From the NCBI GenBank assembly GCA_030679255.1, contig JAUXTO010000019.1, positions 1,699 to 65,698 on the forward strand: a stretch of 64,000 nt of DNA, given 5' to 3'. Shown here one piece after another: positions 12,962 to 60,592 of this stretch. The notes below the pieces were generated by a model. The model was not told where the DNA came from and did no database searches. It worked only from the letters and a program-made list of their open reading frames with translations. The stretch's first letter is position 1, and each line of letters opens with the position of its first letter. The DNA is from Candidatus Gottesmanbacteria bacterium (GTDB lineage: Bacteria; Patescibacteriota; Microgenomatia; UBA10105; UBA927). The translations under genes were made by a program, and so were the position numbers.

Positions 12962-14059
12962 TTATCCGTCGTGCTTCACCCGTCCGGCGAGGGCTCCGGC
13001 GAAGATGAAACAGTAAAGGATAAGCCCCATGAAAAAGCCTTTGATGGAAAAGACAATCCCCTTCTCCTTTACCATGAATGCGAGGAATTTACGGGTGAGG
13101 AAGAGATGGAGGAAGAGAATGACCAATGACCAATACACAATGACCAATGGATAATAACAGGAAAAAATACTCACCACATTTGACATTTGACATTTGACAT
13201 TTGACATTGCGGGAAGCGTAGGGAGAAGCAAAAGACTTATCAGTCCGAAGAAGACCGTACCGACACCAGTCACCGTGGTGAGCGCTTCCTGCAATGTCGT
13301 GGCCACCGGATCAAATTTTTTCCGACGTTGATAAAGTTTCGTCCAGTAGTATGCCCGCAGAAAATATTTTTTGGCGACGGGCCAAAAGGACTCAAACTCG
13401 TGCCGGACGCGGACGTTGGGGGCAAAGATAATTGCGTAGCGCCGGGCTATTCTATAGGTGAGTTCAATGTCTTCCACGAGCGGGGCCGGATACGTCTCGT
13501 CAAAGCCACCGAGGCGCTGGAAGACGGTTTTTTTAATCGAAGCAATGCGAGTGGAAAATAAAAAGTAGTACCCGCTTTTGTCCCGCTCGTTGATCCAATA
13601 CGACCAGTCGCGCAGGGCTTTGTAGTTAGGAAAAAAAGCTTTACTGCGCTGCTCTTTCACCCATACACCGGTGACGGCGACCACATCCGGATCATCCTGG
13701 TAAATCTTGGCTAAATTGTGCAGCGTATCGGGAAACAGCTCGACGTCGCTATCGAGAAATACGACGAATTTCCCCCGGGCTACCTTTACCCCTCTGTTGC
13801 GCGCCACCGCCGGCCCCATATTCTTATGCAGCGTCACGACACGAAGTGAAAATTTTGAATTTACTTGCCCGCCGAAGCCTTGGCGAAGGCGGGTTTGGAA
13901 TTTGGAGCTTGGGATTTGGAATTTCGTCGACGATCCATCGTCAACGACGATCACCTCATATGAGGGAGCCTTTTTCGACCCCTGTATTGACCCGAGAAGC
14001 CGCCCGATGGTCTCAGACGAGTTGTGGTAAGGAATGATGAGAGAAAGGAATGGTTTCAT
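12962..14059 (-). CDS. GT2 glycosyltransferase with a C-terminal membrane region
   Basis: LSLIIPYHNSSETI...YEVIVVDDGSS...FLDSDVEL. Contains in-frame (TTTGACA)4 and (ATGACCA)n tracts. Confidence 0.65.
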   Translation of the reverse strand: MKPFLSLIIPYHNSSETIGRLLGSIQGSKKAPSYEVIVVDDGSSTKFQIPSSKFQTRLRQGFGGQVNSKFSLRVVTLHKNMGPAVARNRGVKVARGKFVVFLDSDVELFPDTLHNLAKIYQDDPDVVAVTGVWVKEQRSKAFFPNYKALRDWSYWINERDKSGYYFLFSTRIASIKKTVFQRLGGFDETYPAPLVEDIELTYRIARRYAIIFAPNVRVRHEFESFWPVAKKYFLRAYYWTKLYQRRKKFDPVATTLQEALTTVTGVGTVFFGLISLLLLPTLPAMSNVKCQMSNVVSIFSCYYPLVIVYWSLVILFLHLFLTRKFLAFMVKEKGIVFSIKGFFMGLILYCFIFAGALAGRVKHDG

Positions 14060-14202
14060 AATTTTTTAATACTACCAATCCGACCCGCTTCGCCGATGCT
14101 TCAGCGAGGCGAGCAAATACTACCAATACTACCAAACGAAGCCAATACGTACTTTTATTCTTGGTAGTATTTGATATTGGTAGTATTGGATTATTGGTAG
14201 TA

Positions 14203-15756
14203 TTACTTTCGTATGAGTAATCCCCCTATCGTAGGGCTAGGCAGAAAGTGGGCAGCAATATAGGCTTGATCTACGGGCAAAAGCGTCGTCACGCGTTTCA
14301 CTCCCCCTTCAAAAATATACTTCGTGTTTGTTTTTTGTAGCGCTTCAATAAGCGCGGGCAGGGGGCGGGACAAGTACGGTGCTGATTGCCCAAAGGGCGT
14401 ACAGCAGACCACGTACGGATGCTTATAGTAGAGGGTTTCTCCGGTCAGATCAAGGATGTATTCTGTGGTGGGGATCGTTTTGTAAAGCATCGTCAATTGT
14501 TTGATCGTATCGGCATTGGTCCAACCGCGTTTGGGACTATTAACCGCCACAAAAACCTGCATGAGCCGGATCGAACCGAGGATAAACAGTGCTAAAAAAA
14601 CTCCGGTCGGGAGGAGATTAGCATGGTTTTTCGATAGCTCCACACTTCTGCGCCAAAGCATATCCACCGCATCGGCCGCGTAAAACGCGATGAATACAAC
14701 GATGGGGATGAGGTACTGCGTGTGTTTAAGCGGGACGATCTGGACGTAAAAAATGACATAAACGAAAAACGTTGAGGCGATCAAAAACTCTGACCAAGAC
14801 CTTCCTGGAGTAACGAGCCGGTAAAGTCCGACGAAAATAGCGGTAAGCCACATGGCGTGATTGGTGACCAGTCCCGCGTTCCATCCTGCCGTCCCATAGA
14901 ACGTGACGTTGGGATAGAAAAACAAATCCGGCATCATGATGAAGGTTTGACTGATTTTGTTGGCCTCAAGACCAAGCTTCGTGAGTGAGTATATTACCTG
15001 ATCAATATTGCCAAGGGTCAGCGTCCAGAGGGCAAATATAGATATAGGTAAAAACATTCCGGCAAGAAGATGCGCGAGCCCTTTGAAAGATTCCCGGAAT
15101 TCTAACTTCTTCCCCGCCTGCCGGACGGACAGGAATTCCGGGAATCGGATAGCACGAAGCAACTCTATCCCCACCGCCACCCCCACCTGCGGCAGAGTTT
15201 TGGGAAGGATGAGCAGGGATATGCCATAGAAAAAACCAGCGACCATCCCGCAAGACACTCTCTTGCAGCCTCGCAAGAGCATGTCTTGCGAGGCTAAGAC
15301 GTGAAAAACCATTCCGAGCATCGCGAACAAGACGGCCAAAGTATCCGGCCGGATTTCCAGGAATTTATCAAACGGCATGGGAAGAAATGCAAGGATCACG
15401 CCGGCCACGATCGCAGTCCACGACCGACGCATGAGCCAAAAGAGAAGCATCGTCACCCCGACCAATAAGACAAATATACCAAATTGAACTATTCTCGCCG
15501 CAAAAATTGGCGCGATCCCGCCTCCGAAGGCAAAAAGCGGCATGAGAAAAAGATGAAAACCCGGCGGAAAGAAAAAAAGGAAATCCACATAGGGCCGGCG
15601 GCCGGAAAACATCTGAAACGCCCACGACAAATGCGCAAATTCATCGACATCAAAATAGCGTGTCATGCCAAGCTGGAAGTGCCAATAAAGAAGAATAGAC
15701 AATAAACAAAAAGCAATAAACGAGAGAATAACTGAAATGAACTGACGTACATTCAT
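14203..15756 (-). CDS. GT-C fold membrane glycosyltransferase (ArnT/PMT-like). Start trimmed to an ATG overlapping the upstream stop (ATGA).
   Basis: FDVDEFAHL DE motif near the N-terminus, many TM segments. Paralog of 51263..53122. Carries an in-frame palindrome (ASQDMLLRG). Confidence 0.55.
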   Translation of the reverse strand: MNVRQFISVILSFIAFCLLSILLYWHFQLGMTRYFDVDEFAHLSWAFQMFSGRRPYVDFLFFFPPGFHLFLMPLFAFGGGIAPIFAARIVQFGIFVLLVGVTMLLFWLMRRSWTAIVAGVILAFLPMPFDKFLEIRPDTLAVLFAMLGMVFHVLASQDMLLRGCKRVSCGMVAGFFYGISLLILPKTLPQVGVAVGIELLRAIRFPEFLSVRQAGKKLEFRESFKGLAHLLAGMFLPISIFALWTLTLGNIDQVIYSLTKLGLEANKISQTFIMMPDLFFYPNVTFYGTAGWNAGLVTNHAMWLTAIFVGLYRLVTPGRSWSEFLIASTFFVYVIFYVQIVPLKHTQYLIPIVVFIAFYAADAVDMLWRRSVELSKNHANLLPTGVFLALFILGSIRLMQVFVAVNSPKRGWTNADTIKQLTMLYKTIPTTEYILDLTGETLYYKHPYVVCCTPFGQSAPYLSRPLPALIEALQKTNTKYIFEGGVKRVTTLLPVDQAYIAAHFLPSPTIGGLLIRK

Positions 15757-16439: not shown

Positions 16440-16441
16440 AG

Positions 16442-17446: not shown

Positions 17447-17462
17447 AGAATAGCAAAGGAAA

Positions 17463-19759: not shown

Positions 19760-21472
19760 ATGGAATGGATGATAGTTTTAATAGTTTCCGCGGGCTTAAC
19801 ACTTATCAATAGCGCGCATGTCATCATCCAGTGGACCCTCAATAAACCCGGGGAAACATTTACCGGCATTGCCCACTCATTCGCCGATTATTTTCTCTAC
19901 GTGGGAGCGATGGCCCAGGGAGCCGCAGGACGGTGGATTTGGATGGAGAATCTCTTCACTAATGAGCCGACAAACCTAACGTGGTACTACTGGTTTTACG
20001 TAAGCCTTGGCCACATCGGTAGTTGGGGTCGTCTCTCCCCGTTTGCCACCTACAACGTGAGCCTCTTTCTTTTCGTTATCGCACTTTGCCTCGTCTGGTA
20101 TAAGCTCACGAAACTTCTCTATCCCACAAATACCTTCCTCCGGCTGACCACCTGGCTCCTAATCCTCACATCGACGAATTTTATTAGCTTCGCAAGGCCT
20201 GGCCTTGCGAAGCTAGGTATATTGGGTTTTTCTCAAATGGAACTTCTTGGTCAATTTTGGTTCTCGCCTGCTCCGGTGTTTAGTCGGCTCGGCGGGGTCC
20301 CCTACCATGTAGTGCAGTCCATCTTGTTTATCCTCCTTGCAATCACTTTTTCCCATCTCCTTGCCTCGAAATCAATTACTCGGGATTATAGTGGGTCACA
20401 TGGTAACATGTTAGCATGGTTACAAAATAAAAAATTACGCTCTTTTCTTTCATTGGTCATTCTGGCTGCCATCGCAGCCAGTGCCAATCCTGTCCAAATG
20501 CTCGTATTTGGCGTGGCGGCGCTTATCACCACAGCGGTCATGACCAATGCCGCGATCTACAAAAAAATTGCGCTGCTGGTGTGTCTTTTCATTGCCGCAG
20601 GGGCCGGAGCATGGTTAACGCAGATGGAATTTTCCCGCCAGGCAGTATTTCTCGCGGCCCGCAGTTGGGAACTCGTGCAACAGGTCCGTAACAACCCATC
20701 GATCCTTATTCTTTCCATAGGTCCAGTACTACTCTTTATCCCATTCGGCATGCAAAAAGTATTCAAAGAAAAAAATCCATTACACATCCTCTTTGTGATC
20801 TGGGGACTCCTCTCTTTTGCATTATTTCTCTCTCCCATCCCCCGACTTCTTGCCCTCTCTCCGGTCCGGTTCCTCCACCCGGTGCCCTACGCGGCGGCGC
20901 TCGCCATCCTCGGGGTGGAAGGATTGGTGCAGTTAGCCGGCTTGCTTCATCGGAGATTAAAAAATAAAGTAACACTCACCACTATCCGCGTGGCATTACT
21001 ACTTGCCTATCTCATCCTCACCATTCCCGCGATCTCCCGCCAATTTATCGACCGCATCACCCCGGCCCGTAATCCGCAACTCCTCATGGACACCATCTAC
21101 AACCACGTCCCCGCCCCCATCGCCGACGCCCTCACCTGGCTCAGAGTGACAGGGCCTGGCCCTGTCATAGAGCGTCCGGTCGTGCTTGTTGATCCGGCTA
21201 TCCCCATAGAAGTGCTCGTGCCAGTATTCACCGGAAAAATCTCCTTCTCCGGCCACCCCATCCATACGCTCTACCCCGATGTGAAAGAAGCCAAACGGCA
21301 GAAGTTTTTCGGAGGGAAAATGAGCGAGACTGAAGCGAATCAATTCTTAAAAGATCACCGGATAGGATATATTATTTCCAAACCGATATCCCCCACTCTG
21401 GCGGACTATTCAAAATTTGTTACAATGGTTTTTCAAAACGATGTAATCGCGATATTCAAAACAATGAAATGA
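19760..21472 (+). CDS. Polytopic membrane protein; family X paralog 2. Contains an in-frame REP palindrome.
   Basis: FADYFLYVGAMAQGAAGRW...TNEP. REP encodes SFARPGLAKL. Confidence 0.45.
   Translation: MEWMIVLIVSAGLTLINSAHVIIQWTLNKPGETFTGIAHSFADYFLYVGAMAQGAAGRWIWMENLFTNEPTNLTWYYWFYVSLGHIGSWGRLSPFATYNVSLFLFVIALCLVWYKLTKLLYPTNTFLRLTTWLLILTSTNFISFARPGLAKLGILGFSQMELLGQFWFSPAPVFSRLGGVPYHVVQSILFILLAITFSHLLASKSITRDYSGSHGNMLAWLQNKKLRSFLSLVILAAIAASANPVQMLVFGVAALITTAVMTNAAIYKKIALLVCLFIAAGAGAWLTQMEFSRQAVFLAARSWELVQQVRNNPSILILSIGPVLLFIPFGMQKVFKEKNPLHILFVIWGLLSFALFLSPIPRLLALSPVRFLHPVPYAAALAILGVEGLVQLAGLLHRRLKNKVTLTTIRVALLLAYLILTIPAISRQFIDRITPARNPQLLMDTIYNHVPAPIADALTWLRVTGPGPVIERPVVLVDPAIPIEVLVPVFTGKISFSGHPIHTLYPDVKEAKRQKFFGGKMSETEANQFLKDHRIGYIISKPISPTLADYSKFVTMVFQNDVIAIFKTMK
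20186..20214. repeat. REP-A, 29-nt perfect palindrome AGCTTCGCAAGGCC-T-GGCCTTGCGAAGCT, inside a CDS
   Basis: Exact palindrome seen directly. Confidence 0.9.
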
Positions 21473-23196
21473 ATAAAAAACATATTATTACCGGGTTCGT
21501 CCTGACCATCCTTCTGTTCGCTGTTCACCTCGTCATCATCGATGACTACGGCATCACGTGGGACTTCCACCATCATTTCTTTGCGGGGCTCTATCACCTT
21601 GGGATCCCACTCAAAGAGAGCTTAACGAAAAACATCCCCTTCACGATGCCTGACCCGCGCGGGACGTATGACCTGCCGTTTGGGCCGCTTATGCTCATCG
21701 CGCCCACCATCACGTACCAGATATTTCATGAATGGCTCGGGCTTCTTGCGTTTGATAACGCCTATCACCTCTCCATTATCGTTTCGGGGGTTGCCGGAGT
21801 CTTCATCCTCTATCTTTTTCTTCTGGAAGCATTCGGCTTGGCGACTGCGCTTGCCGGTTTTGCGTTTCTTGCGCTCCTGCCTCGTTACTTCGGGGACCTG
21901 CATAACAACATGAAGGACGTACCGCAGGCAGCCGCATTTGCTCTGGCCATCTATATGTTCTGGCGCCTCGCGCGGTATAAACGGTTGAAGGATTTGATCT
22001 TGGCCACCCTCGCCTTCGCAATAGCATTTAATACGAAGGTGAATACGCTGTTGGTGCCGGTGATTGCGGGAATGTGGATGTTCCTCACGAGTATAAAGGG
22101 ATTAGTATATAGGGGTAAGGATAAATCATTTTTTATTGGTCATTGGTCCGCCAGCTGGCGGATGGTCATTGGATATTTCCTCCTCGCTCCCCTCATGGCC
22201 TTCCTCCTCTGGCTCCCATTTTGGAAAGATCCCATTGACCGGCTGATCTACATGTTCCGGTTCTTTCTGGACAATACACTCAATCTCGAAGTCCTCTACT
22301 TCGGCACGATCTATAAAAGTGCCATCAACGTCCCCTGGCACTATGCATTGGGGTACCTGGGGGTGACGACACCGATTCCCACGCTTATATTTTTTCTTAT
22401 TGGAATTTTGATAATTGTTTGGAAATTGAGATTTGAGATTTGGGATTTGAAAAAGGCCACCGGCCTTCTGCTCCTCCTCTGGTTCTTCCTCCCCCTCACC
22501 CGCTACCTCAATCCTAAGATTGGCGTCATCGACGGCATCCGGCATTTTGAGGAAGTCGTGTTTCCACTGGCCGCCATTGCCGCGGTGGGAGCGGTAAACG
22601 TCATGAGACGCATGAGTCACATGGGTCGCATGAGTCTCATGGTGATCATCCTCCTCTCCCTCATCCTCCCCATCGTCCGCTATCACCCCTACCAGATCTC
22701 CTATTTCAATGAGTTAGTCGCGTCAAACGCGACTACTGGACGCATTTCGGAAGTCGCGTCAAACGCGACTCGCGCGTTTCTAACCGGCGCGGGCGGCATA
22801 CGGGGAGCCTGGAAAAACTTTGACGTGGAGTACTGGGGCACCTCACAAAAAGCTGCGATGCGCTGGCTCAACGCCAATGCGCCGAAGGATAGCTATGTCC
22901 ACGTCCTCATGGCCGGCGACTCGGCGGCTAAATATCTTCGTCCCGATCTTCTCGCCCGCGTCAACAAAAAAGGGTTTGATGAAGCCGACTACGTGGTGGT
23001 CCTCAACCGGCAATCGTTTTTTAACCGCTACTGGGGCATCACCGACTACATGCCCAAACATAAAATCGCTTACACAGTGAGTGTACAAGGAGTTCCGTTG
23101 ACGCTTATTTACGATAACAAACTCGGGCTCGTCTCCCCTCCTGCGTTCCCTTGGTGGGAAAAACCCAACAGTCCAACTACCTTCCAAATCCCGTAG
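21469..23196 (+). CDS. GT-C fold membrane glycosyltransferase (PMT/ArnT-like) carrying several in-frame simple-repeat tracts
   Basis: Many TM segments. Tracts at 22418-22450, 22600-22640, and an 19-nt direct repeat at 22717/22752. Confidence 0.45.
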   Translation: MNKKHIITGFVLTILLFAVHLVIIDDYGITWDFHHHFFAGLYHLGIPLKESLTKNIPFTMPDPRGTYDLPFGPLMLIAPTITYQIFHEWLGLLAFDNAYHLSIIVSGVAGVFILYLFLLEAFGLATALAGFAFLALLPRYFGDLHNNMKDVPQAAAFALAIYMFWRLARYKRLKDLILATLAFAIAFNTKVNTLLVPVIAGMWMFLTSIKGLVYRGKDKSFFIGHWSASWRMVIGYFLLAPLMAFLLWLPFWKDPIDRLIYMFRFFLDNTLNLEVLYFGTIYKSAINVPWHYALGYLGVTTPIPTLIFFLIGILIIVWKLRFEIWDLKKATGLLLLLWFFLPLTRYLNPKIGVIDGIRHFEEVVFPLAAIAAVGAVNVMRRMSHMGRMSLMVIILLSLILPIVRYHPYQISYFNELVASNATTGRISEVASNATRAFLTGAGGIRGAWKNFDVEYWGTSQKAAMRWLNANAPKDSYVHVLMAGDSAAKYLRPDLLARVNKKGFDEADYVVVLNRQSFFNRYWGITDYMPKHKIAYTVSVQGVPLTLIYDNKLGLVSPPAFPWWEKPNSPTTFQIP

Positions 23197-35839: not shown

Positions 35840-35896
35840 TCGTCTTCATGTGTTCGTCTTCATTTCGACAAAATACGACCAATAATCCAAAAAGTT

Positions 35897-35925
35897 AGCT
35901 TCGCAAGGCCAGGCCTTGCGAAGCT
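35897..35925. repeat. REP-A palindrome (centre A), 26 nt upstream of the RAYT gene
   Basis: agcttcgcaaggccaggccttgcgaagct. Confidence 0.9.
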
Positions 35926-35950
35926 AGAAATTCTATGATAGGTTGATGGT

Positions 35951-36667: not shown

Positions 36668-36685
36668 CGTAATATTAGAAAAAAG

Positions 36686-43916: not shown

Positions 43917-44637
43917 TGGGGATGGCCGCGCCCGTGATATAGCCGGCTTGGGGGCTTGCCAGATAGACGGCGAGACTGGCAATTTCTTCCGGCTGGGCTT
44001 TGCGTCCCAGCGGAATTTGTTTGATCATTGTTTCCATATAAGAAGTTGGAACGTCTTTAAGAATTTCTGTATCGACAAGTCCCGGGCAAATGGCATTGAC
44101 GGTAATGCCAAAGCGCGCCACTTCTTTGGCTAACGACTTTGTAAATCCAATAAGGGCCGCTTTGGACGCACTATAGTTCGTTTGCCCGAAATCTCCCCGC
44201 TGCCCGCTTATAGAAGAAAGGAAAATAATCCTCCCCCACCCGGAGGCAATCATGCCGGGAAGTAATTGTTTGGTGACAAAGAATGCACCATACACATTGG
44301 TTTTCATGACGATATCCCAATCCTCTCCACTCATCTTGGTAAATAAAACATTACGGACGATCCCCGCGTTGTTGACGAGAATATCGATATGACCGAATTG
44401 GGAAATAACTTTTGCGCATCCGCGGGCCACTGCGTTGGGATCGGTGATGTCAAAATACACCGCGTTGCTTTTGGGTGATAAACGTTTTATCTGCCTAAGG
44501 ACATCCTTGCTCTCCGGCGACGGATGTGATGCATGGGTGACAACGATATTCCCCTCCCGAGCAAATCCCAACGCTATCGCCCGCCCAATGCCACGGGACG
44601 AGCCGGTGACGAACACAATTTTTTCTTTTGTTTTCAT
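43897..44637 (-). CDS. SDR-family oxidoreductase (FabG-like)
   Basis: IVFVTGSSRGIGRAIA...NNAG...YSASKAA. Confidence 0.7.
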   Translation of the reverse strand: MKTKEKIVFVTGSSRGIGRAIALGFAREGNIVVTHASHPSPESKDVLRQIKRLSPKSNAVYFDITDPNAVARGCAKVISQFGHIDILVNNAGIVRNVLFTKMSGEDWDIVMKTNVYGAFFVTKQLLPGMIASGWGRIIFLSSISGQRGDFGQTNYSASKAALIGFTKSLAKEVARFGITVNAICPGLVDTEILKDVPTSYMETMIKQIPLGRKAQPEEIASLAVYLASPQAGYITGAAIPINGGWM

Positions 44638-46775: not shown

Positions 46776-47527
46776 ACGCCTACCTTCGTCGCGTACACCA
46801 CGAGGGTTGCGCCTCTCGGGAACGGACACCAAAGAAAAAACAACTGTTCCAACCGTAACAAATAATACAACATAGCATTGACCAAAGGATGTGGGACACG
46901 CAAATACATGGGGACGACCGGGACAGACGTCTGGCGCTTGGTGTACATCCTGAAAAGGATATACCACGGCAGGGAAAACACGTTCCAATAATTCATATAG
47001 TGCACATGAAATCCGGCAGTACGGAGTTTTTCCCTGAGCTCACCCGGCTCATATCTCCTCTTATGCCCGCCAATGTCATCCAGACTACTCCAAAGCCACT
47101 TCCCTGCTGGTACGGTCAAGAGAAACGTACCGTCTTTTTCCAACATGTCCCAACACCGTCGTAAAAATAAACGGTCGCGCGTTTGATGTTCAAGGACATC
47201 AAATGCCCCGACCCCGCTAAATTTTTGTTTGCTCTGAAATGTATAGAGGGACTGACGGACAAACCGGGCAGCAGGACAACTGTTTTTTGCATAGGTGAGC
47301 GCTGCCTCATTGACATCCAAGCCCACGACACGATATCCCAGATTGTCTAACACGCGCAGCATGATGCCGGTCCCACATCCTACTTCAAGGAATGACCGGC
47401 GATCATTTTTTGGAATGAACCGTTCAATAAGTCCAGCAAGCATGGAGCCACGCGCACGGAACCAGAAATGCTCGTTCTCGACTTGGGCTACCTCCCTATA
47501 GTGCGATATATGATACGTTGCGGACAT
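46772..47527 (-). CDS. Class I SAM-dependent methyltransferase
   Basis: FLEVGCGTGIMLRVL...VVGLDVNE. Confidence 0.65.
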   Translation of the reverse strand: MSATYHISHYREVAQVENEHFWFRARGSMLAGLIERFIPKNDRRSFLEVGCGTGIMLRVLDNLGYRVVGLDVNEAALTYAKNSCPAARFVRQSLYTFQSKQKFSGVGAFDVLEHQTRDRLFLRRCWDMLEKDGTFLLTVPAGKWLWSSLDDIGGHKRRYEPGELREKLRTAGFHVHYMNYWNVFSLPWYILFRMYTKRQTSVPVVPMYLRVPHPLVNAMLYYLLRLEQLFFLWCPFPRGATLVVYATKVGV

Positions 47528-54410: not shown

Positions 54411-55163
54411 ATGAGTGATGAAGTATCCGAAGAGCCCACTGGTGATATCTCTAAAACGCTTCCGGTGATCGGGGGGGCGTTTTTAATTCTAGTGGCCATC
54501 GTATTCCTTGCCTACCAATACAGCAAACCCCGGCCGGGGACGGTGGTTTTGCCGGGAGGGATAACGTATTTGGGGCCAAGTCCGACAGAGAGTCAAAAGT
54601 CTCCGCCAAAGGCGGACCAGCCTCTGGCCGGGAAAGTCGAAAGTCAAAAGTCAGCGCAAGAGAACGTGGCGGAGGCGGAGCGCTCTCGTTTCACAACTGA
54701 TGCATCGGTACCCTGGACCACAGTGAAAAGCACGAAGTATGGCTATACTTTTTCCGTCCCGGAGACACTCACCCTTGAGCCATTTCTCACCGATGAGTTT
54801 GATGCGTATGCCATCACCTGGAACAATGTATCTAAAGAAGCCAATGTCCTGGTCGGCGTGGAAAACTTATCCAACGACGACAAACGCGCTCCGTACGTCA
54901 AAAAGACCAAAAAAGAATATATCGAATCATTTTGGTCCAAACAATACAATCTGACCGGAGTCAAACAGATCACATCATTCACCAATAAAAAAGGATTGAA
55001 AGGCTACAAGGTGAAATTTCAAACGGCGGGTGGCGTATCCCCCTTTGACGATGTGTTTCTGGAAGTTCCGGCAAAACCGAATCTCCTCATCCACCTATCA
55101 AACGCAATTATCGAAGGGAAATTGTTTGATAAAATCGTGGACAGTGTCGCTTGGGGACAATAA
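54411..55163 (+). CDS. N-terminally membrane-anchored extracytoplasmic hypothetical protein
   Basis: A single TM segment near the N-terminus, then a soluble domain. Confidence 0.4.
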   Translation: MSDEVSEEPTGDISKTLPVIGGAFLILVAIVFLAYQYSKPRPGTVVLPGGITYLGPSPTESQKSPPKADQPLAGKVESQKSAQENVAEAERSRFTTDASVPWTTVKSTKYGYTFSVPETLTLEPFLTDEFDAYAITWNNVSKEANVLVGVENLSNDDKRAPYVKKTKKEYIESFWSKQYNLTGVKQITSFTNKKGLKGYKVKFQTAGGVSPFDDVFLEVPAKPNLLIHLSNAIIEGKLFDKIVDSVAWGQ

Positions 55164-55920: not shown

Positions 55921-56004
55921 ATTTTTCTCCTATACGGATAACAATGGTGAGTATAATACTGATTAAATCAAAAAAATGCAAATTTTTCTGCTACAATAAT
56001 TTTT

Positions 56005-57921
56005 ATGAAGTTTCCGAAGTGGTTTTGGGTGGGAATACTGATTGCGCTTTTTGTGCGTCTCGCGCTCATCCCCAATCCTGGCTTTGAGGCGGATGTGTCG
56101 TTTTGGAAGGCGTGGGGACTGGCGGTCGTTGACAAAGGTGTCATTGAGGGCCTGAAGGTGAGCAACAGTAACTACCCTACCCCATTTATGTATACGCTCG
56201 GCGTCATGGTATGGGTGTATAAACTTTTTGCCGATCCCCATAACTTTAATGAATTTTGGAATAACAGCAATCTTCTCTTCTTGACCATCTCGAAAATGCT
56301 GCCGATCATGGCAGATTTTGGAATTGCCGGAATCATTCTTTGGATAAGCACCAAATACCAAGCATCAAGCATCAAACAAGCACCAAATTCCAAGCATCAA
56401 ACGTTTGGAACATTGGGATTTAGAATTTTGAATTTGTTTGGAATTTGGAATTTGGAATTTGGAGCTTCTCGTGTCGGTTTTTTATTTGCCCTTGTCTACC
56501 TCCTCTCCCCCATCTCCCTCATCGACGGGGCGTGGTGGGGGCAAGTCGATAGCGTCGGGGTATTTATATTTCTTGCGGCTGTGGTCGCCGTCCTCAAAAG
56601 GTGGCCTGTGCTTGCCGGAGTGATCTACATGGTGGGCGTCATGACCAAGCTCCAAAATATGATCTACGGCCCGGTGTTTTTTCTGTTCGTTTGGCAGTCG
56701 CTTGGATACCAGGGATTGGTCCGCGCTATAGCCGGCAGCACACTCGGTTTTTTCGGCCTGAATATCGAATTTTTCCTCTCGCGAAACATGGCCAGGGTGA
56801 TGGCAAGCCTCACCGAAAACTATGACTACTTCCCTCTCATGAGCCTGAACGCCTACAACCTTTGGTGGATATTCTCCGGAGCCAAAGGCATGGCGATGAG
56901 TGATAAATTTTTGAGCGTGGGGATCATGAATGCGAAGACGGTAGGTCTGGTATTGTTTTCGGGGGTGTATTTGTTTGCGGTACTCCGGCAGACTTTTACA
57001 AGGCACTTCCTTGCAGCTTCGCAAGACATGCTCTTGCGAGGATTCCTCGAATCCCTGATCCTCGTCAATGGGGCATTTTTTCTTTTCCAAACACAGTCGC
57101 ATGACCGGTATGCGTTTCCGCTGTCCGTGTTTCTTCTGCTGTGGGCACCGTTTTTCATTTCGCAAGACATGCTCTTGCGAGGCTACAAGAGCATGTCTTA
57201 TGGAATCAATATCCGTCTTTTTGCAATGTTCTATACACTTTTCACCATCTTTTATTTCTACAATCTCCATACAGCGCTCATCGTCAATTATCCTAATAAC
57301 GGAATCCCGGGGCTCACGCTTCTTACTCAGCCTTTTTTCACGATCATGACCTCCGTCGTGTTGTTGGGATTATTCGGCGTCATTCTTTGGCATTTTGCGC
57401 GACAATCCAGGCTCGCATTCTTTGTCTCCTGTCTCGTGTCTCTTGCCGCCTTGACTGCCCTCAACCTCCCCCTCATCACGAAAAAACCAGTATCGCTTAC
57501 TAAACTCACTCCCTACGTCGCCGAAGTAGGCTACGGAAAGCGGCAAACCGATATGCCCGTCAATGCATTTTTAGGCTACTCCAAACAATCATATCTCTCG
57601 GTGCAGTATGCGTTTTATCGGAGCGGTCTGGGCCTCCACTCACCGAGCTTTCTCAATTATGATATCGGCGGGCACTTCAAAACATTGATCACCGATTACG
57701 GGATTGACACAGAAGCAGGAGGAAAAGGATCGGCGGTCTTTGAAGTGTACGGCGATGATAGACTGTTATGGCGGTCGGAGAAAATCGGACGGTATGAAAA
57801 TCCGCGGCATGCGGAAGTGAACGTGACGGGAGTGCGGAAACTGGGACTCATCACGACGGATGCCGGGGACGGCCGTGACGATGATCATGTGGATTGGCTC
57901 CGGCCGATGCTGTGGCCATAA
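56005..57921 (+). CDS. GT-C-like polytopic membrane protein with two in-frame Pal-B palindromes and an in-frame simple-repeat insert
   Basis: ASQDMLLRG and ISQDMLLRG peptides encoded by CTCGCAAGACATGCTCTTGCGAGG; insert STKYQASSIKQAPNSKHQ..FGIWNLEFG. Confidence 0.45.
   Translation: MKFPKWFWVGILIALFVRLALIPNPGFEADVSFWKAWGLAVVDKGVIEGLKVSNSNYPTPFMYTLGVMVWVYKLFADPHNFNEFWNNSNLLFLTISKMLPIMADFGIAGIILWISTKYQASSIKQAPNSKHQTFGTLGFRILNLFGIWNLEFGASRVGFLFALVYLLSPISLIDGAWWGQVDSVGVFIFLAAVVAVLKRWPVLAGVIYMVGVMTKLQNMIYGPVFFLFVWQSLGYQGLVRAIAGSTLGFFGLNIEFFLSRNMARVMASLTENYDYFPLMSLNAYNLWWIFSGAKGMAMSDKFLSVGIMNAKTVGLVLFSGVYLFAVLRQTFTRHFLAASQDMLLRGFLESLILVNGAFFLFQTQSHDRYAFPLSVFLLLWAPFFISQDMLLRGYKSMSYGINIRLFAMFYTLFTIFYFYNLHTALIVNYPNNGIPGLTLLTQPFFTIMTSVVLLGLFGVILWHFARQSRLAFFVSCLVSLAALTALNLPLITKKPVSLTKLTPYVAEVGYGKRQTDMPVNAFLGYSKQSYLSVQYAFYRSGLGLHSPSFLNYDIGGHFKTLITDYGIDTEAGGKGSAVFEVYGDDRLLWRSEKIGRYENPRHAEVNVTGVRKLGLITTDAGDGRDDDHVDWLRPMLWP
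57015..57041. repeat. Pal-B palindrome (REP-A-related, different centre). Second copy at 57159..57182; third copy at 15269..15293.
   Basis: agcttcgcaagacatgctcttgcgagg. Confidence 0.8.
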
Positions 57922-58042
57922 AAGTCCGTAAAGTCAAAAAGTCCTTAAAGTCCGTAAAGTCAAAAAGTCCGTAAAGTCCGTAAAGTCCGTAAAGTATTTG
58001 ACTTTATAGACATTCGACTTTATAGACTTTCGACTCTAAGTT

Positions 58043-60592
58043 ATGAAACATCTTGAAAAACTAATTGGTATCGGCATGCTTCTCTTCGCCATCGGGTTTA
58101 ACCTCTGGCTCTATCGGATGGAACCCCGGGCTTCCATCGATCCCAATGACAATGCATTCCAGTATGCTCTGGTTGACCGGACAAACCAAATATGGGATTT
58201 TGCATCTAAAAAGTGTTCATCCAAATTTGGTACTTGGAATTTGGCGCTTGGTGCTTTCTGCCAAGTATCATACTTGGCAGATCATTGGGTTCCCAACTGG
58301 GCAGAGGGATATAATCTCCCCTTCTACTATTCCCACGTGCCGCAAATACTCATCGTGGGTACGTATCGTTTCTTCCATTCGTTTATTCAATTATTTAATT
58401 ATTCCTTTATTTCATTATTCACTTATTATCACTGGGTGATCTACCTCCTACTCTCTCTCTTCCCTCTTACCGTCTTCCTCGCGTTACGGATTATTAAACT
58501 ACCTTGGGTGATAGTAGGCGTCGGCGCACTCCTGGCAAGCCATATCTCGACGGACGGACTCTATGGACTCGATCCCCCATCATTCTTATGGAGGGGATTT
58601 GGATTATCGAGCCAGCTTTTTGGCATGATATTTCTGCCGATGGCGATTGCATATAGCTACCGCTATTTCGCTCAAAGCACCAAATTTTGGCCTGCGGTCT
58701 TTTTCCTCACGGCCACTGCCATGGGGCACTTGGGTCTGGGCATCATGGCGATGCTCTCCCTTGTCCCACTTACTTTGGCCCGCCCGCTTCTGATGATCCT
58801 TGAGTCCCATCGGCCATCAGATATCTACCAAGTAACCAAAACCCAACTCACGAAGCTCATCCTTCTCTCGGCCACCGTCATATTCTTTCTCAGTTACTGG
58901 GTCGTCCCCATATTCCTTGCAGACAACTACCACAACATCTCCTTCTGGGATCCGCCGTGGAAATTTGCGTCCTACGGCGCCAAAGAGATCATGACGCGAC
59001 TCTTCAACGGTGATCTCTTTGACTGGGGAAGAGGTCCTTGGATGACAGTACTTGTGATTGTGGGACTGATTGGAGCGGCATGTCCGAGAGCTCAAGTATA
59101 TAGGGAGAAGTATTTAGGAACTAGGGAAAACCTGCAAACAGATGCCAATATACTAAATACTTATCCCTATCTACCTTTCTCCCTTCTCTTCCTCTTCTGG
59201 CTCCTCATGTATTTTGGACGCGCGACATGGGGGCCGCTTATCGATCTCATCCCGGGCATGAAGGAGTTTCATCTGTCCCGCTTTATCGTAGGGCTCCATG
59301 TGGCGGGACTGTTTTTGATGCCTATAGGTATATGGTGGCTATGGGATATGATGTCTCGGATAATCATGCGTCTGAGCCGTTTACCGGTTCGCTTCATGGG
59401 ACTTATGGGTCTTATGGGACTTATGGGACTTATGGGACCTCCGATCTATAAGCAAACCATCGAGTACGCACGACACAATGACCGGCTGATAAAGCAGTCA
59501 ATAGAAAACCATGCAAAGGTAAAAGATGATGAGGCAGCGCTTTTTGCCGCGATTCGAAATTTACCATCAGGAAGAGTCTATGCAGGGCGGGGTGGCGGAT
59601 TTGGCAAAGACTTCCGCGTCTCGGAAACCCCGTACTATATGGATCTGTCGACCTATGGCATCCCAAGCGTCCTGTGGCTCCCGGAAACGTGGTCGCCCAA
59701 CTCGGATGTGGAGCAGTATTTTAATGAAGATAGGGCGCGTGATTACGACCTGTTTGGCATCCGCTATGTGGCCGCTCCGCCTAAACAGGAGCCAAAGAAA
59801 TTTTGGAGGCTTATTGCGGAAAAACCAACATGGAAATTATATGAGGTTGAGCTATCTGTCACTGCGGGCTTGAAAAAAGATGGATCCCGGCTCCCCGTAT
59901 CGGGGTACGGGGCAGGCTTGGGCCGGGATGACAATAAATCCGTTGGATATTTTATGACCGGCGTGCGGCCGGCAATTGTGGCTACCGATAAACGCTCGTA
60001 CGGCAATGTGGTGCGGTTTTGGATCCAATCGGGTGCCCATGAGCAGGGCTTGTATCCTGAACTGACGTTTGCCAAGGGCTATCCGAAGGCGACCGGTCTG
60101 CCCAACTTTAAAATGCTTGACGAAGTGACGTATGTCATACCAAACGGGTCCAAACATAATCTATTCAAAGAGCCGCCGGTCTATATGCCTCCAGGTATAC
60201 AATCTCTCGAACAATTCAACAAATTAACCCTACAACAATACAACACCGCAACCATTGAGAAAGAAGATTCGGAAGGAGACATGATCTTCCGAGCCACCGT
60301 AACCGTGGGCAATAATTGTACCGAGTGTATCGTGGTTCTCAAGCAATCGTTCCATCCAAACTGGCGCGCGACGATTGACGGCAAACCTGCCTCAACCTTC
60401 ACCGTCTTCCCTTTCTATCTCGCCGTCTCCGCGCCATCTGGAACCCATGAGGTCGTTTTTTCGTACGAACCGAGCCGTCTAAAAATCGGACTGCTGACTC
60501 TTGAGGTGATTGCCCTCCTGTACCTCGTAGGGAGATTTATGGTTATTCGTTTCGCCAACCGCCCTCTTGGGCTATCTGACGAAGAGTTGTAA
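58043..60592 (+). CDS. Large YfhO-like polytopic membrane protein with an in-frame (GGGACTTAT)n tract
   Basis: C-terminal FHPNWRATIDGKPA...SGTHEVVFSYEP resembles the YfhO C-terminal signature. MGLMGLMGLMGLMG comes from the nonamer repeat at 59395-59438. Confidence 0.5.
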   Translation: MKHLEKLIGIGMLLFAIGFNLWLYRMEPRASIDPNDNAFQYALVDRTNQIWDFASKKCSSKFGTWNLALGAFCQVSYLADHWVPNWAEGYNLPFYYSHVPQILIVGTYRFFHSFIQLFNYSFISLFTYYHWVIYLLLSLFPLTVFLALRIIKLPWVIVGVGALLASHISTDGLYGLDPPSFLWRGFGLSSQLFGMIFLPMAIAYSYRYFAQSTKFWPAVFFLTATAMGHLGLGIMAMLSLVPLTLARPLLMILESHRPSDIYQVTKTQLTKLILLSATVIFFLSYWVVPIFLADNYHNISFWDPPWKFASYGAKEIMTRLFNGDLFDWGRGPWMTVLVIVGLIGAACPRAQVYREKYLGTRENLQTDANILNTYPYLPFSLLFLFWLLMYFGRATWGPLIDLIPGMKEFHLSRFIVGLHVAGLFLMPIGIWWLWDMMSRIIMRLSRLPVRFMGLMGLMGLMGLMGPPIYKQTIEYARHNDRLIKQSIENHAKVKDDEAALFAAIRNLPSGRVYAGRGGGFGKDFRVSETPYYMDLSTYGIPSVLWLPETWSPNSDVEQYFNEDRARDYDLFGIRYVAAPPKQEPKKFWRLIAEKPTWKLYEVELSVTAGLKKDGSRLPVSGYGAGLGRDDNKSVGYFMTGVRPAIVATDKRSYGNVVRFWIQSGAHEQGLYPELTFAKGYPKATGLPNFKMLDEVTYVIPNGSKHNLFKEPPVYMPPGIQSLEQFNKLTLQQYNTATIEKEDSEGDMIFRATVTVGNNCTECIVVLKQSFHPNWRATIDGKPASTFTVFPFYLAVSAPSGTHEVVFSYEPSRLKIGLLTLEVIALLYLVGRFMVIRFANRPLGLSDEEL

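What the first reader, a model, noticed from the sequence alone, without database searches (positions are those of the whole stretch)
13118..59438. In-frame heptamer/nonamer microsatellites inside many membrane-protein genes
Tracts seen:
- (TTTGACA)4 at 13179..13206 and (ATGACCA)n at 13118..13150 in the GT2 gene;
- (TTTGGAA)-type tracts at 13880..13925 and 56431..56470, sharing tttggaatttggagctt;
- (GATTTGA)n at 22418..22450;
- a catgag-type tract at 22600..22640;
- a 33-nt tandem duplication at 48135..48199, with the same motif present in reverse orientation at 56340..56400, giving related peptides KHQAPN... and KYQASSIKQAPNSKHQ;
- (GGACGTA)n at 49050..49088;
- (GGGACTTAT)5 at 59395..59438.

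Every tract keeps the host ORF open. Heptamers change frame by +/-1 per unit, so these are potential contingency loci as well as sources of low-complexity loop peptides.
Basis: seen in the sequence. Interest (0 to 1): 0.55.

Follow-up and report, generated by a model that had tools for sequence, protein, structure and literature searches.

The report
Translated heptamer repeats inside CPR genes
Short runs (about 30 bases) of 7-base repeats sit in frame inside many membrane-enzyme genes of this Gottesmanbacteria (CPR) genome and are read through as small loop insertions. They look like tolerated, lineage-wide repeat DNA filtered by translation, not on/off switches.

Summary
The tracts are real. 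Period-7 arrays occur 14 times against 0.03 expected, and every listed tract lies in an open reading frame. The window comes from a Candidatus Gottesmanbacteria MAG. It encodes many GT-C/YfhO-type membrane glycosyltransferases.

The arrays are 4-5 units long (median 31 nt) and sit in variable loops that distant homologues lack.

Translation filters them:
- The stop-free strand is the coding strand in 25 of 27 strand-asymmetric units.
- The two window arrays whose unit carries a TGA are mutated exactly at the would-be stop.

The contingency-locus reading is not supported:
- No out-of-frame allele was seen among about 70 ORF-embedded arrays.
- All eight (TGTCAAA) arrays across three genomes have 4 units.
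- Several arrays occur per gene, and many are imperfect.

The same (TGTCAAA)4 array sits in frame in PGK, TsaD, transketolase, MurE and P-type ATPase genes. The PGK host is Patescibacteria; the other hosts were not placed taxonomically.

Arrays diverge less than their coding flanks (3% against 12%). How they arise is unresolved: pre-formed copy-and-paste or slippage.

The same genes also carry in-frame copies of a 31-nt palindrome. Two further copies flank a RAYT-like transposase gene at 35951-36667, which carries a third in frame.

The parts
12962..14059 (-). Host gene: family-2 glycosyltransferase with C-terminal TM helices. It carries three heptamer arrays.
   Evidence: Pfam PF00535, E=4.6e-25. 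Orthologues in L006 and L007 (63% identity) lack the array segments.
13118..13149 (-). (TTGGTCA)-type array, coding strand CATTGGT..., read as PLVIVYWSLVI. It is a 12-residue insertion that lengthens a TM helix.
   Evidence: It is the inverted match of the 41895-41928 array (I24).
13176..13208 (-). Perfect (TGTCAAA)4.7 array of 33 nt, read as AMSNVKCQMSNV.
   Evidence: It shares a 45-nt segment, cgcttcScgcaa-(TGTCAAA)4-tgtgg, with loop-1 copies in YfhO genes.
13894..13924 (-). (AAATTCC)-type array read as KFQIPSSKFQ. The unit is stop-free on both strands.
   Evidence: The same unit is read in the opposite orientation at 56437-56463.
21469..23196 (+). Host gene: PMT_2-type (GT-C) membrane glycosyltransferase.
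   Evidence: Pfam PF13231.
22426..22450 (+). (TTGAGAT)3.6 array read as LRFEIWDL. The unit contains TGA, and the in-frame TGA is changed to TGG.
   Evidence: Absent from orthologues.
22602..22641 (+). Nonamer array (CATGAGTCG)4.4 read as MRRMSHMGRMSLM.
36686..38920 (-). Host gene: YfhO-family membrane protein, paralogue 1.
   Evidence: Pfam PF09586; alignment A1.
38375..38393 (-). (TCAGCTA)2.7 array read as GQLSAIS, in loop 2.
38550..38579 (-). Degenerate (TGTCAAA)4 array read as AMSNIKGQMSK, in loop 1.
   Evidence: The orthologous L001 array differs at 2 of 28 positions, against 17 of 120 in the flanks.
40023..42296 (-). Host gene: YfhO-family membrane protein, paralogue 2. It is 100% identical to a Candidatus Gottesmanbacteria MAG protein.
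   Evidence: AF2 model: mean pLDDT 85.7.
41695..41728 (-). (TGTCAAA)4.9 array read as ANVKCQKSNVKW, in loop 2.
   Evidence: It lies mainly in a confidently modelled helix, with a short turn. Conserved in L002 at 1 of 28 differences.
41854..41878 (-). (ATGTCCT)-type array read as LRPMSYVL, in loop 1.
   Evidence: pLDDT below 50.
41898..41928 (-). (AATGACC)-type array read as MTNDQLPISN. The unit contains TGA, and the third unit is changed to AATTACC, which removes the in-frame stop.
   Evidence: pLDDT below 50.
44634..46988 (-). Host gene: YfhO-family membrane protein, paralogue 3. The true start is probably at Met72.
46162..46191 (-). (CTCAAAA)-type array read as SKLKTKNSK.
46330..46408 (-). 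Adjacent arrays (ATGTCCT)3 and the octamer (AATTATCC)4.4, read as ELSNNPIIKLSN...LCPMSYVL.
   Evidence: The same octamer array, 35 nt long, is in L001 and L004.
47542..49548 (-). Host gene: 668-aa polytopic membrane protein with no Pfam family.
48135..48200 (-). Two identical 32-nt copies built of AAGCACC/AAGCATC heptamers, read as QQAPSIKHQIPNKHQASSTKYQ. The loop is hypervariable among relatives.
49059..49088 (-). (ACGTCCT)-type array read as PYVLDPTSYVP.
56005..57921 (+). Host gene: polytopic membrane protein with a C-terminal NPCBM domain.
   Evidence: Pfam PF08305.
56346..56463 (+). AAGCATC-type tract followed by a (TTTGGAA) array, read as KYQASSIKQAPNSKHQTFGTLGFRILNLFGIWNLEFG. This gives a net 20-residue insertion relative to L006 and L007.
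57423..57442 (+). (TGTCTCC)2.9 array inside a TM segment.
58043..60592 (+). Host gene: YfhO-like 849-aa membrane protein. It carries arrays at 58224-58251, at 58383-58427 (octamer) and at 59396-59438, the last a (GGGACTTAT)4.8 nonamer read as MGLMGLMGLMGLMG.
1924..1952 (-). (TTTTCCG)4 array in the leader peptide of a type IV pilin-like protein (ORF 1376-1984).
   Evidence: Metagenomic pilins L049 and L142 carry TGTCAAA arrays in the same position.
6498..6526 (+). (AGTCAAA)-type array at the C-terminus of the 924-aa Gly-rich protein.
54633..54653 (+). (AAAGTCA)3 array in a 250-aa protein with no family.
14116..14204 (-). Intergenic inverted nonamer arrays (AATACTACC / TTGGTAGTA) that form a long hairpin. 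This is a different class from the intragenic heptamer arrays.
   Evidence: RNA fold -26.9 kcal/mol, z = -4.8.
57921..58035 (+). Intergenic inverted arrays (AAAGTCCGT)n / (GACTTTATA)n that form a long hairpin.
   Evidence: RNA fold -28.2 kcal/mol, z = -6.8.
35896..36726 (+). RAYT-like Y1 transposase gene (35951-36667). It is flanked by the 31-nt palindrome TAGCTTCGCAAGGCCWGGCCTTGCGAAGCTA at 35896-35926 and 36696-36726, with a third copy in frame inside it at 36456-36485.
   Evidence: Pfam PF01797, E=5.6e-9. NCBIfam NF047646 'REP-associated tyrosine transposase', E=4.9e-9 and below the curated cut-off. Sequence read; repeats.
40962..40992 (-). In-frame copy of the 31-nt palindrome in YfhO paralogue 2, read as SFARPGLAKLA. 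Further in-frame copies lie at 20186-20215 and 48654-48684.

Best explanation
The tracts are short tandem arrays of heptanucleotides, 4-5 units and median 31 nt, plus a few octamer and nonamer arrays. They belong to repeat families shared across Gottesmanbacteria: TGTCAAA, TTGGTCA/AATGACC, TTCCAAA, ATGTCCT, AAGCACC and others. At least the TGTCAAA family also occurs in other Patescibacteria.

They are embedded in frame in structurally permissive loops of proteins and are translated as insertions of 7-12 residues.

A heptamer array passes through all three reading frames every 21 nt. It therefore encodes the same cyclic 7-residue peptide whatever the codon phase. It stays open in every frame provided none of its seven cyclic triplets is a stop. 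Selection on the host protein therefore acts as a filter. Arrays survive only in the stop-free orientation, or after a point change at the would-be stop. They also need a total length that restores the frame and a position where an extra loop is harmless, which is why polytopic GT-C/YfhO enzymes collect them.

Shown here: the arrays are real, in frame, orientation-filtered, located in loops, stable in length between orthologues, less diverged than their flanks, and present in relatives.

Inferred: arrays are seeded by copying pre-formed arrays between loci (ectopic recombination or conversion), and are kept homogeneous by slippage or conversion. They are selfish or neutral passengers, not expression switches.

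The same genes are also colonised in frame by a REP-like 31-nt palindrome. Copies of that palindrome flank a RAYT-like transposase gene in the window, which is presumably what mobilises it.
For: Enrichment and identity:
- Period-7 arrays: 14 observed against 0.03 expected.
- The source is a Candidatus Gottesmanbacteria MAG.
- Relatives L001-L005, L008 and L010-L012 also carry period-7 arrays, often with the same units.

Arrays are loop insertions:
- They lie in alignment segments missing from distant homologues.
- Two arrays sit in the one internal loop of more than five residues with pLDDT below 50 in a model with mean pLDDT 85.7.

Translation filter:
- In the window, 18 of 20 coding-strand units are stop-free, while 13 of their reverse complements contain a stop.
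- The two stop-bearing units (22426 and 41898) are mutated exactly at the in-frame TGA.
- In the window plus relatives, 39 of 45 arrays lie in ORFs of at least 200 codons. The stop-free strand is the coding strand in 25 of 27 asymmetric units, p=5.6e-6.
- Of 93 metagenomic (TGTCAAA)n arrays with at least 200 nt of sequence on each side, 38 have open frames on both sides in sense, against 5 in antisense.
- All three codon phases are used: 19, 15 and 17 of the 51 ORF-embedded arrays, my count.

Not switches:
- All 8 TGTCAAA arrays have 4 units.
- In-phase against out-of-phase counts are 37:1 and 34:0 genuine.
- Hosts include PGK, TsaD, transketolase, MurE, a P-type ATPase, RecG, DNA ligase, ProRS and RadA, assigned by reading the translations. 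Only PGK was confirmed, as Patescibacteria PGK.

Copying between loci:
- A 45-nt segment including non-array flank is shared between GT2 and YfhO loop 1.
- ORF-embedded TGTCAAA arrays peak sharply at 30-34 nt. Viral arrays spread from 21 to 100 nt and are rarely in ORFs.

Homogenisation:
- Arrays differ at 5 of 167 positions, against 84 of 720 in the flanks, p=3e-4.
- At YfhO loop 1 the unit changes in concert across orthologues.

Structure: intragenic arrays do not fold (z from -2.5 to +0.7), unlike the intergenic inverted arrays (z = -4.8 and -6.8).
Against: - No read-level data were available, so rare length variants cannot be excluded.
- Lower divergence than the flanks is unexpected for neutral passengers. 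It could mean DNA-level function or very recent insertion.
- The mechanism that would copy a roughly 30-nt array into a new gene is unknown. No terminal signature or target-site duplication was seen.
- Stepwise slippage of a heptamer inside an essential gene must pass through frameshifted intermediates. In-situ homogenisation is therefore hard to reconcile with the absence of out-of-frame alleles.
- Twenty-seven different units occur among 39 ORF-embedded arrays. That fits local origin better than a few master elements.
- The membrane-protein bias comes from one 64-kb window that is itself a glycosylation gene island.
Confidence: 0.6

Rival explanations
1. Contingency loci. Slipped-strand mispairing changes the heptamer copy number by one unit, shifts the frame, and switches membrane glycosyltransferases on and off in part of the population.
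For: - Unit length is not a multiple of three, so each unit change shifts the frame. This follows from the sequence.
- Some arrays are perfect: 13176-13208, 46330-46351 and 56437-56463.
- Hosts are envelope glycosylation enzymes.
- Concerted change of units at one site and low array divergence imply that unit gain and loss does occur on evolutionary time scales.
- An assembly gap (N run) abuts an array in L001.
Against: - Arrays have only 4-5 units and most are imperfect.
- Known heptanucleotide switches use long tracts. This is from my own knowledge; the papers on neuO and hmw1A listed were not read.
- All 8 TGTCAAA arrays across three genomes have 4 units.
- No genuine out-of-frame alleles were found among 37+34 arrays with open flanks.
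- Up to three arrays sit in one gene.
- Arrays with a potential stop carry fixed point changes that keep the ORF open.
- The same array occurs in single-function housekeeping enzymes such as PGK and TsaD.
Confidence: 0.1
2. Discrete mobile mini-elements. Arrays of about 30-33 nt are pre-formed units that an unknown enzyme or repair pathway actively inserts into genes. They would resemble Rickettsia palindromic elements or the small dispersed repeats of Nostoc, and their heptamer design makes them open in every frame.
For: - The identical (TGTCAAA)4 array sits in frame in dozens of unrelated proteins, in all three codon phases.
- Lengths peak sharply at 30-34 nt in ORFs, with a median of 31 nt over all units.
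- Stepwise growth of a non-triplet repeat in an essential gene would need frameshifted intermediates (inference).
- GT2 and YfhO share a 45-nt segment.
- Arrays are less diverged than their flanks.
- Palindromic elements are nested inside arrays in P0027 and P0005 and in L005.
Against: - No terminal motifs, target duplications or associated enzyme were found.
- A composition-matched control heptamer, (GTTCAAA)3, is more common than (TGTCAAA)3 in viral contigs (43 against 13). Heptamer arrays as such therefore arise generally.
- There are 27 different units among 39 arrays.
- Several arrays replace native loop residues rather than simply adding 11 residues. Net gain is +2 aa in GT2 and +5 aa in PGK.
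- Concerted evolution at a fixed site points to long residence, not repeated insertion.
Confidence: 0.2
3. Functional motif. The arrays are kept because the DNA, the RNA or the encoded heptad peptide does something, for example as a binding site for a lineage-specific protein.
For: - Arrays diverge about four times less than adjacent coding sequence, including at positions that would be synonymous.
- The array at YfhO loop 2 is retained in orthologues of 61-68% protein identity.
- In the window, period-7 arrays are essentially confined to coding DNA.
Against: - Units are very diverse and are exchanged at the same site between orthologues.
- Many arrays are degenerate.
- Two arrays lie in a low-confidence loop, though the 41695 array is modelled as helix.
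- There is no RNA structure, no Rfam match and no promoter-like arrangement.
Confidence: 0.08
4. Assembly or sequencing artefact.
For: Repeats can be mis-assembled. One relative has an N run next to an array.
Against: - Arrays are far shorter than reads.
- They occur at orthologous positions in independent MAGs from different studies.
- They keep frames open and show orientation selection.
Confidence: 0.01

Closest known systems
Long simple-sequence repeats of prokaryotes with heptanucleotide units (Mrazek, Guo and Shah 2007, as summarised in PMC4679880), and the cyanobacterial STRR heptamers
   Same: Both are tandem heptamers with a few units per array and several unit families dispersed through a genome. 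The earlier survey found heptamers to be the commonest 5-11-nt class and proposed polymerase slippage. The unit TTGGTCA at 13118 and 41898 is, from memory, the STRR2 unit of Nostocales.
   Different: Those repeats are described as mainly intergenic, and repeats inside genes are said to favour units divisible by three (PMC4679880, PMC9879509). Here 39 of 45 period-7 arrays are inside long ORFs of conserved proteins, in a CPR lineage.
TAACTGA direct repeats of marine Beggiatoaceae (PMC4679880)
   Same: Both are heptamer direct repeats whose permitted orientation inside genes is set by stop codons. The forward orientation has stops in all frames, and the reverse orientation gives a cyclic 7-residue peptide. 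That paper also raises possible mobility.
   Different: TAACTGA is one unit, mostly upstream of start codons and proposed to be regulatory. Its intragenic copies are few and lie at protein ends. Here there are many units, mostly intragenic and in the middle of proteins.
Rickettsia palindromic elements (RPE; reviewed in PMC10969869)
   Same: Both are dispersed repeats inserted in frame into unrelated genes, including metabolic genes, at positions compatible with the protein fold, and translated as extra peptide.
   Different: RPEs are about 150-bp palindromic MITE-like elements. The arrays here are about 30-nt, unstructured tandem heptamers. The 31-nt palindrome of this genome is the closer structural analogue.
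Phase-variable simple-sequence contingency loci (for example Haemophilus influenzae SSRs, the subject of PMC2651432, abstract; heptanucleotide tracts of hmw1A and neuO, from my own knowledge)
   Same: Both are non-triplet tandem repeats inside genes for envelope functions. One unit change shifts the frame.
   Different: Tracts here are short, often imperfect and identical in length between species, and no out-of-frame alleles were seen.
Borg tandem repeats that create disordered regions (PMC9879509)
   Same: Both are tandem repeats in ORFs that add low-complexity, disordered segments and are enriched in membrane or extracellular proteins.
   Different: All Borg in-ORF repeats have unit lengths divisible by three and give perfect amino-acid repeats. 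Here the dominant unit is 7 nt. Only the nonamers at 22602 and 59396 fit the Borg pattern.
REP/REPIN elements with RAYT transposases (PMC3116915), for the palindromes only
   Same: Both have a short palindrome repeated through the genome and a Y1 (HUH) transposase gene flanked by copies.
   Different: Classical REPs are extragenic. Here at least four copies are in frame inside genes, including the RAYT-like gene itself. The match to the RAYT model is below its curated cut-off.

Membership tests
Phase-variable contingency locus (SSR switch) | Long, perfect repeat tract prone to slippage | tested here: not met
   Arrays have 2.4-4.9 units. Only 5 of 20 are perfect, and the longest perfect tract is 4.7 units.
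Phase-variable contingency locus (SSR switch) | Copy number differs between strains or relatives, including out-of-frame (OFF) alleles | tested here: not met
   All 8 TGTCAAA arrays have 4 units. No genuine out-of-frame alleles were found among 71 arrays with open flanks. This was tested on assemblies only.
Phase-variable contingency locus (SSR switch) | Length heterogeneity within a population (reads) | not testable with these tools
   No reads were available. A flank-gap-flank scan for variants of the 13176 array in metagenome contigs found nothing.
Phase-variable contingency locus (SSR switch) | A unit change alters the reading frame of a gene for a surface or envelope function | tested here: met
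   The 7-nt units lie inside ORFs of GT2, PMT_2 and YfhO enzymes. The same array is also found in cytosolic housekeeping enzymes elsewhere.
Heptanucleotide LSSR / STRR-type repeats | Tandem arrays of 7-nt units, far more frequent than chance | tested here: met
   14 observed against 0.03 expected. Relatives show the same enrichment.
Heptanucleotide LSSR / STRR-type repeats | Several unit families dispersed through the genome and shared by related genomes | tested here: met
   TGTCAAA, TTTGGAA, AATTATCC, ATCACTC and TCGTTACT recur in the window and in L001-L005 and L010.
Heptanucleotide LSSR / STRR-type repeats | Predominantly intergenic location | tested here: not met
   No period-7 array lies in 4.7 kb of intergenic DNA, against 19 in genes. 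In the window plus relatives, 39 of 45 lie in ORFs of at least 200 codons.
RPE-like in-frame selfish elements | The same repeat inserted in frame in unrelated genes and translated | tested here: met
   (TGTCAAA)4 occurs in GT2, in YfhO and in more than 40 other ORFs including PGK, TsaD and transketolase. Translation is inferred from orientation and stop filtering, not observed.
RPE-like in-frame selfish elements | Palindromic or MITE-like structure of about 100-150 bp | tested here: not met
   Arrays are about 30 nt and do not fold.
RPE-like in-frame selfish elements | Insertion sites compatible with the protein fold (surface loops) | tested here: met
   pLDDT is below 50 in the loop at residues 127-148, in a model with mean pLDDT 85.7. 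Insert positions coincide with gaps in homologues.
REP/RAYT system (31-nt palindrome only) | Y1/HUH transposase gene flanked by copies of the repeat | tested here: met
   ORF 35951-36667 has palindrome copies 25 nt upstream and 29 nt downstream. HUH-like 'HFH' and 'YIHRNP' motifs can be read in the sequence.
REP/RAYT system (31-nt palindrome only) | Protein scores as a RAYT with the curated model | tested here: inconclusive
   NF047646 is the only hit, at 36.2 bits against a cut-off of 80. Pfam Y1_Tnp scores 36.6 bits against a cut-off of 23. There was no PDB sequence match.
Borg-type amino-acid tandem repeats | In-ORF repeat unit divisible by three, giving perfect amino-acid repeats | tested here: not met
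   The dominant unit is 7 nt. Only 22602-22641 and 59396-59438, both 9 nt, comply.

The most novel reading that the evidence does not exclude
Patescibacteria harbour a previously undescribed class of 'frame-proof' mini-elements. These would be tandem heptamer arrays about 30-33 nt long that an active process copies into protein-coding genes, essential enzymes included, and maintains at the DNA level. They would exploit the fact that a stop-free heptamer array encodes the same peptide in every frame. This would be the smallest known selfish DNA that lives inside genes, and a general source of loop insertions in CPR proteins.
Probability: 0.22. Interest if true: 0.7.

Novelty: new variant of a known kind. 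Interest (0 to 1): 0.5.

Why it matters
The usual rule is that tandem repeats inside genes have units divisible by three. This rule appears in a survey of prokaryotic repeats as summarised in PMC4679880, and for Borg elements in PMC9879509. Non-triplet repeats in genes are usually read as phase-variation switches.

Here a CPR lineage carries dozens of non-triplet arrays inside conserved genes without any sign of switching. A simple sequence logic explains how they are tolerated: the unit must be stop-free in all three frames.

If the pattern holds genome-wide, three things follow:
- It would account for part of the many lineage-specific insertions in Patescibacteria proteins.
- It would warn against annotating such tracts as contingency loci.
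- It would raise a mechanistic question: what copies or maintains 30-nt arrays that diverge less than the genes around them?

It also gives a practical test for translation of a region, namely orientation with respect to cyclic stops.

Tried and rejected
- An exact look-up of the GT2 protein in public assemblies found no record.
- A flank-gap-flank scan of metagenome contigs for strain variants of the 13176 array found 0 hits. Population-level variation therefore could not be examined.
- The orthologue of ORF 47542-49548 in L001 is split at an array, which looked like a frameshifted allele. The sequence shows a run of N there, so it is an assembly gap and not evidence.
- Four 'out-of-phase' calls in my phase test were artefacts. 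One array sits at the end of a gene next to the following gene. One is the N run. Two are in L002, where a spurious longer frame competes with the intact 715-codon ORF.
- I considered whether (TTTGACA)n on the antisense strand acts as a row of -35 boxes (TTGACA). No promoter-like site involves the TGTCAAA array in 12900-14300, and flanks differ between copies. Rejected.
- I considered whether TGTCAAA is a special, universally mobile unit. A composition-matched control heptamer is more frequent in viral contigs, so the unit itself is not special.
- RNA structure in intragenic arrays: none. Known RNA families in the window: none.
- Literature searches for heptamer or tandem repeats in CPR/Patescibacteria coding regions found no report of this pattern. 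The library is incomplete, so this is weak evidence of novelty.

Full report
**1. What the window is**

ORF 40023-42296(-) is 100% identical to a YfhO-family protein of a Candidatus Gottesmanbacteria MAG, and its nearest relatives are all Gottesmanbacteria or Patescibacteria. The window (49% GC) is about 91% coding.

It is a glycosylation island. It holds GT2 enzymes, a PMT_2-type enzyme, four YfhO-like proteins, other large polytopic proteins, sugar-nucleotide enzymes and type IV pilin-like genes.

**2. The observation**

One correction applies: the '33-nt duplication' at 48135-48200 is two identical 32-nt copies.

With a simple self-match score, period 7 gives 14 arrays against 0.03 expected from first-order Markov simulations. 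Period 9 gives 7. All other periods give 0-6.

Each listed tract lies within a long ORF and leaves it open. Others lie at 1924, 6498, 38375, 38550, 41695, 41854, 41898, 46162, 46330, 46374, 54633 and 57423.

In this window 16 of 19 period-7 arrays are in genes with three or more predicted TM helices (28.9 kb). Three are in other genes (30.4 kb) and none is in 4.7 kb of intergenic DNA.

Intergenic arrays have periods of 8, 9 or 16. They are arranged as inverted pairs that fold into long hairpins (14116-14204, z = -4.8; 57921-58035, z = -6.8). Intragenic heptamer arrays do not fold. These are two different classes.

**3. The arrays are loop insertions**

I aligned YfhO paralogue 2 with 19 homologues and the two window paralogues. 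The arrays sit in segments that are gaps in the more distant homologues (P0010-P0017) and are hypervariable among Gottesmanbacteria. The same holds for the GT2, the 668-aa protein, the NPCBM protein, the PMT_2 protein and the 849-aa protein against orthologues in L001-L011.

An AlphaFold2 model of paralogue 2 is confident overall (mean pLDDT 85.7). It drops below 50 at residues 1-4, at 127-148 (the loop holding arrays 41854 and 41898) and at 358-362. The 41695 array lies mainly in a confidently modelled helix, with a short turn.

**4. Translation filters the arrays**

A heptamer array runs through all three frames every 21 nt. It is therefore open in every frame if none of its seven cyclic triplets is a stop, and it encodes one cyclic 7-residue peptide regardless of phase.

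- In the window, 18 of 20 arrays have a stop-free coding-strand unit, while 13 of the reverse complements contain a stop.
- The two exceptions, (TTGAGAT)n at 22426 and (AATGACC)n at 41898, carry a substitution exactly where TGA would fall in frame.
- Across the window and 12 related loci, 39 of 45 period-7 arrays lie in ORFs of at least 200 codons.
- Among the 27 units that are stop-free on only one strand, that strand is the coding strand in 25 (p=5.6e-6). The median length is 31 nt.

**5. The same arrays occur elsewhere**

A genome scan gave syntenic Gottesmanbacteria loci (L001, L004, L011) at about 75% DNA identity. These loci carry period-7 arrays, often with the same units.

- Unit counts were 3:46, 4:59, 5:8, 6:4, 7:2 and 8:2.
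- Arrays inside ORFs cluster at 30-34 nt.
- They are used in all three codon phases: 19, 15 and 17 of the 51 ORF-embedded arrays, my count.
- Of the 93 arrays with at least 200 nt of sequence on each side, 38 have open frames on both sides in sense, against 5 in antisense.
- From their translations, hosts include phosphoglycerate kinase (two genes, same site), TsaD (two), transketolase, MurE, P-type ATPase (two), GT2 (two, at the same site as the window's 13894 array), RecG, DNA ligase, ProRS, RadA and pilin leader peptides.

The PGK host is Patescibacteria. An alignment of 22 Patescibacteria PGKs shows the same surface loops filled by different repeat-derived peptides or left empty. The phenomenon is therefore not specific to membrane proteins. 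The bias in this window most likely reflects how many permissive loops polytopic enzymes offer.

**6. Test of the contingency reading**

- Arrays are short and mostly imperfect.
- The eight TGTCAAA arrays in the window, L001 and L002 all have four units.
- Among arrays with at least 60 open codons on both sides, 37 of 38 metagenomic arrays and all genuine cases in the window and its relatives are in phase. The exceptions are explained in the record of rejected leads.
- The one apparent split gene, in L001, has an N run at the array.
- A scan for strain variants of the 13176 array found nothing, so read-level or strain-level variation remains untested.

On this evidence I put switching at about 10%.

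**7. What remains odd**

In six orthologous pairs, arrays differ at 5 of 167 positions against 84 of 720 in the 60-nt flanks (Fisher p=3e-4).

At YfhO loop 1 the unit changes in concert across orthologues and paralogues:
- AMSNVKCQMSNV
- AMSNIKGQMSKI
- EMSKVKGQMSNV
- AMTNDK[PALPAGR]WQMTNA
- KIPNSKFQIPKL

At other loops, different arrays replace each other between relatives of 70-75% identity.

GT2 and YfhO share a 45-nt segment that includes non-array flank. This suggests copying between loci.

Stepwise slippage of a 7-nt unit inside an essential gene would need frameshifted intermediates. That favours transfer of pre-formed arrays, or events of three units at a time.

Against a special element:
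- A composition-matched control, (GTTCAAA)3, is more frequent than (TGTCAAA)3 in viral contigs (43 against 13). There, arrays have broad lengths and are rarely in ORFs.
- Twenty-seven different units occur among 39 arrays.

I therefore treat the origin as unresolved, between ectopic copying and slippage. I give an active 'mini-element' about 20%.

**8. Comparison with what is known**

- Heptanucleotides are reported as the commonest long simple-sequence repeat in many prokaryotes, with slippage proposed. In-gene repeats are reported to favour triplet units (summarised in PMC4679880; the same rule holds for Borg repeats, PMC9879509).
- TAACTGA repeats in Beggiatoaceae show the same stop-codon and orientation logic but are mainly intergenic (PMC4679880).
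- Rickettsia palindromic elements are the classic case of repeats inserted in frame in unrelated genes (PMC10969869).
- From memory, unverified here: TTGGTCA is the STRR2 unit of Nostocales, and small dispersed repeats of Nostoc insert into heptamer arrays (Elhai et al. 2008). The second point parallels the nested palindromes seen in P0027 and P0005 and in L005.

The present case differs in combining three things: non-triplet units, a predominantly intragenic location in conserved proteins, and a CPR host. I found no report of this pattern.

**9. Side finding**

A perfect 31-nt palindrome, TAGCTTCGCAAGGCCWGGCCTTGCGAAGCTA, occurs seven times in the window. Copies in frame in genes give FARPGLAKLA or LASQGQALRS.

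Two copies flank ORF 35951-36667, and a third lies in frame inside it. That ORF is a Y1/IS200-like protein whose only NCBIfam hit is 'REP-associated tyrosine transposase'. This is a REP/RAYT-like system whose repeats, unusually, also live inside genes.

**10. Verdict**

The finding is best described as a new variant of known simple-repeat and in-frame selfish-DNA phenomena. It is of moderate interest, with an open mechanistic question.

Noticed in passing
window 35896-36726: A RAYT-like Y1 transposase gene (35951-36667) has 'HFH' and 'YIHRNP' motifs. Copies of a perfect 31-nt palindrome flank it on both sides, and a third copy sits in frame inside the gene itself.
   Followed up: partly
window 20186, 35896, 36456, 36696, 40962, 48654, 63173: There are seven copies of the palindrome TAGCTTCGCAAGGCCWGGCCTTGCGAAGCTA. 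At least four are in frame in ORFs, giving FARPGLAKLA or LASQGQALRS. The palindrome is also present in L003, L004 (5 copies), L011 and L012, but in none of the non-Gottesmanbacteria loci.
   Followed up: partly
window 15270-15293, 57018-57041, 57159-57182: A second hairpin repeat, TCGCAAGACATGCTCTTGCGA, is read in frame as SQDMLLRG in two membrane-protein genes, twice in ORF 56005-57921. It is also present in L001 and L011.
   Followed up: no
window 26531-26562 and 48571-48602: A third palindromic repeat, ACTGGATCCTCGGGTCAAGCCCGAGGATGACA, has 32-nt arms that are 100% complementary. It lies in frame in two genes. It corresponds to the '...GSSPRMTG...'-type peptides seen in many homologues.
   Followed up: no
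window 50004-50069 and 51889-51954: A 66-nt direct repeat (91% identity) contains an interrupted palindrome. It occurs inside two adjacent, divergently transcribed membrane-protein genes, in opposite orientation relative to the two coding strands.
   Followed up: no
window 14116-14204 and 57921-58035: Intergenic inverted nonamer and 16-mer arrays fold into long hairpins (z = -4.8 and -6.8). They lie between convergent or tandem genes and may act as terminator-like elements.
   Followed up: partly
window 61031-62059: Inverted repeats of about 64 nt (61031-61094 and 61996-62059) and a 51-nt direct repeat flank ORF 61164-61961, a PaaX-like protein with a Cas2-like central domain. Its homologue in L001 sits in a different genomic context, so the gene may be mobile.
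   Followed up: no
L013 5987-6067, L015 2350-2420, L016 6210-6311, L017 8021-8091: In unrelated phyla (Anaerolineales, Thermoanaerobaculia, Flavobacteriales), heptamer arrays occur as an array followed by its inverted complement. That makes hairpins built of heptamer repeats. This organisation differs from the intragenic arrays of the window.
   Followed up: no
P0027, P0005 (alignment A1) and L005 3937-6126: Palindromic elements are nested inside heptamer arrays: AMSNVKC[RAVAEAAMARRR]QMSNV, NVKCQ[TRLPAGQ]VSNVKWK and AMTNDK[PALPAGR]WQMTNA. Arrays may be preferred targets for the hairpin elements.
   Followed up: no
window 3766-6540: A 924-aa secreted-looking protein has repeated 'NVGIGT' motifs and long Gly-rich runs (GGGGGGNYGGGGGG). 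It lies next to several pilin-like genes.
   Followed up: no
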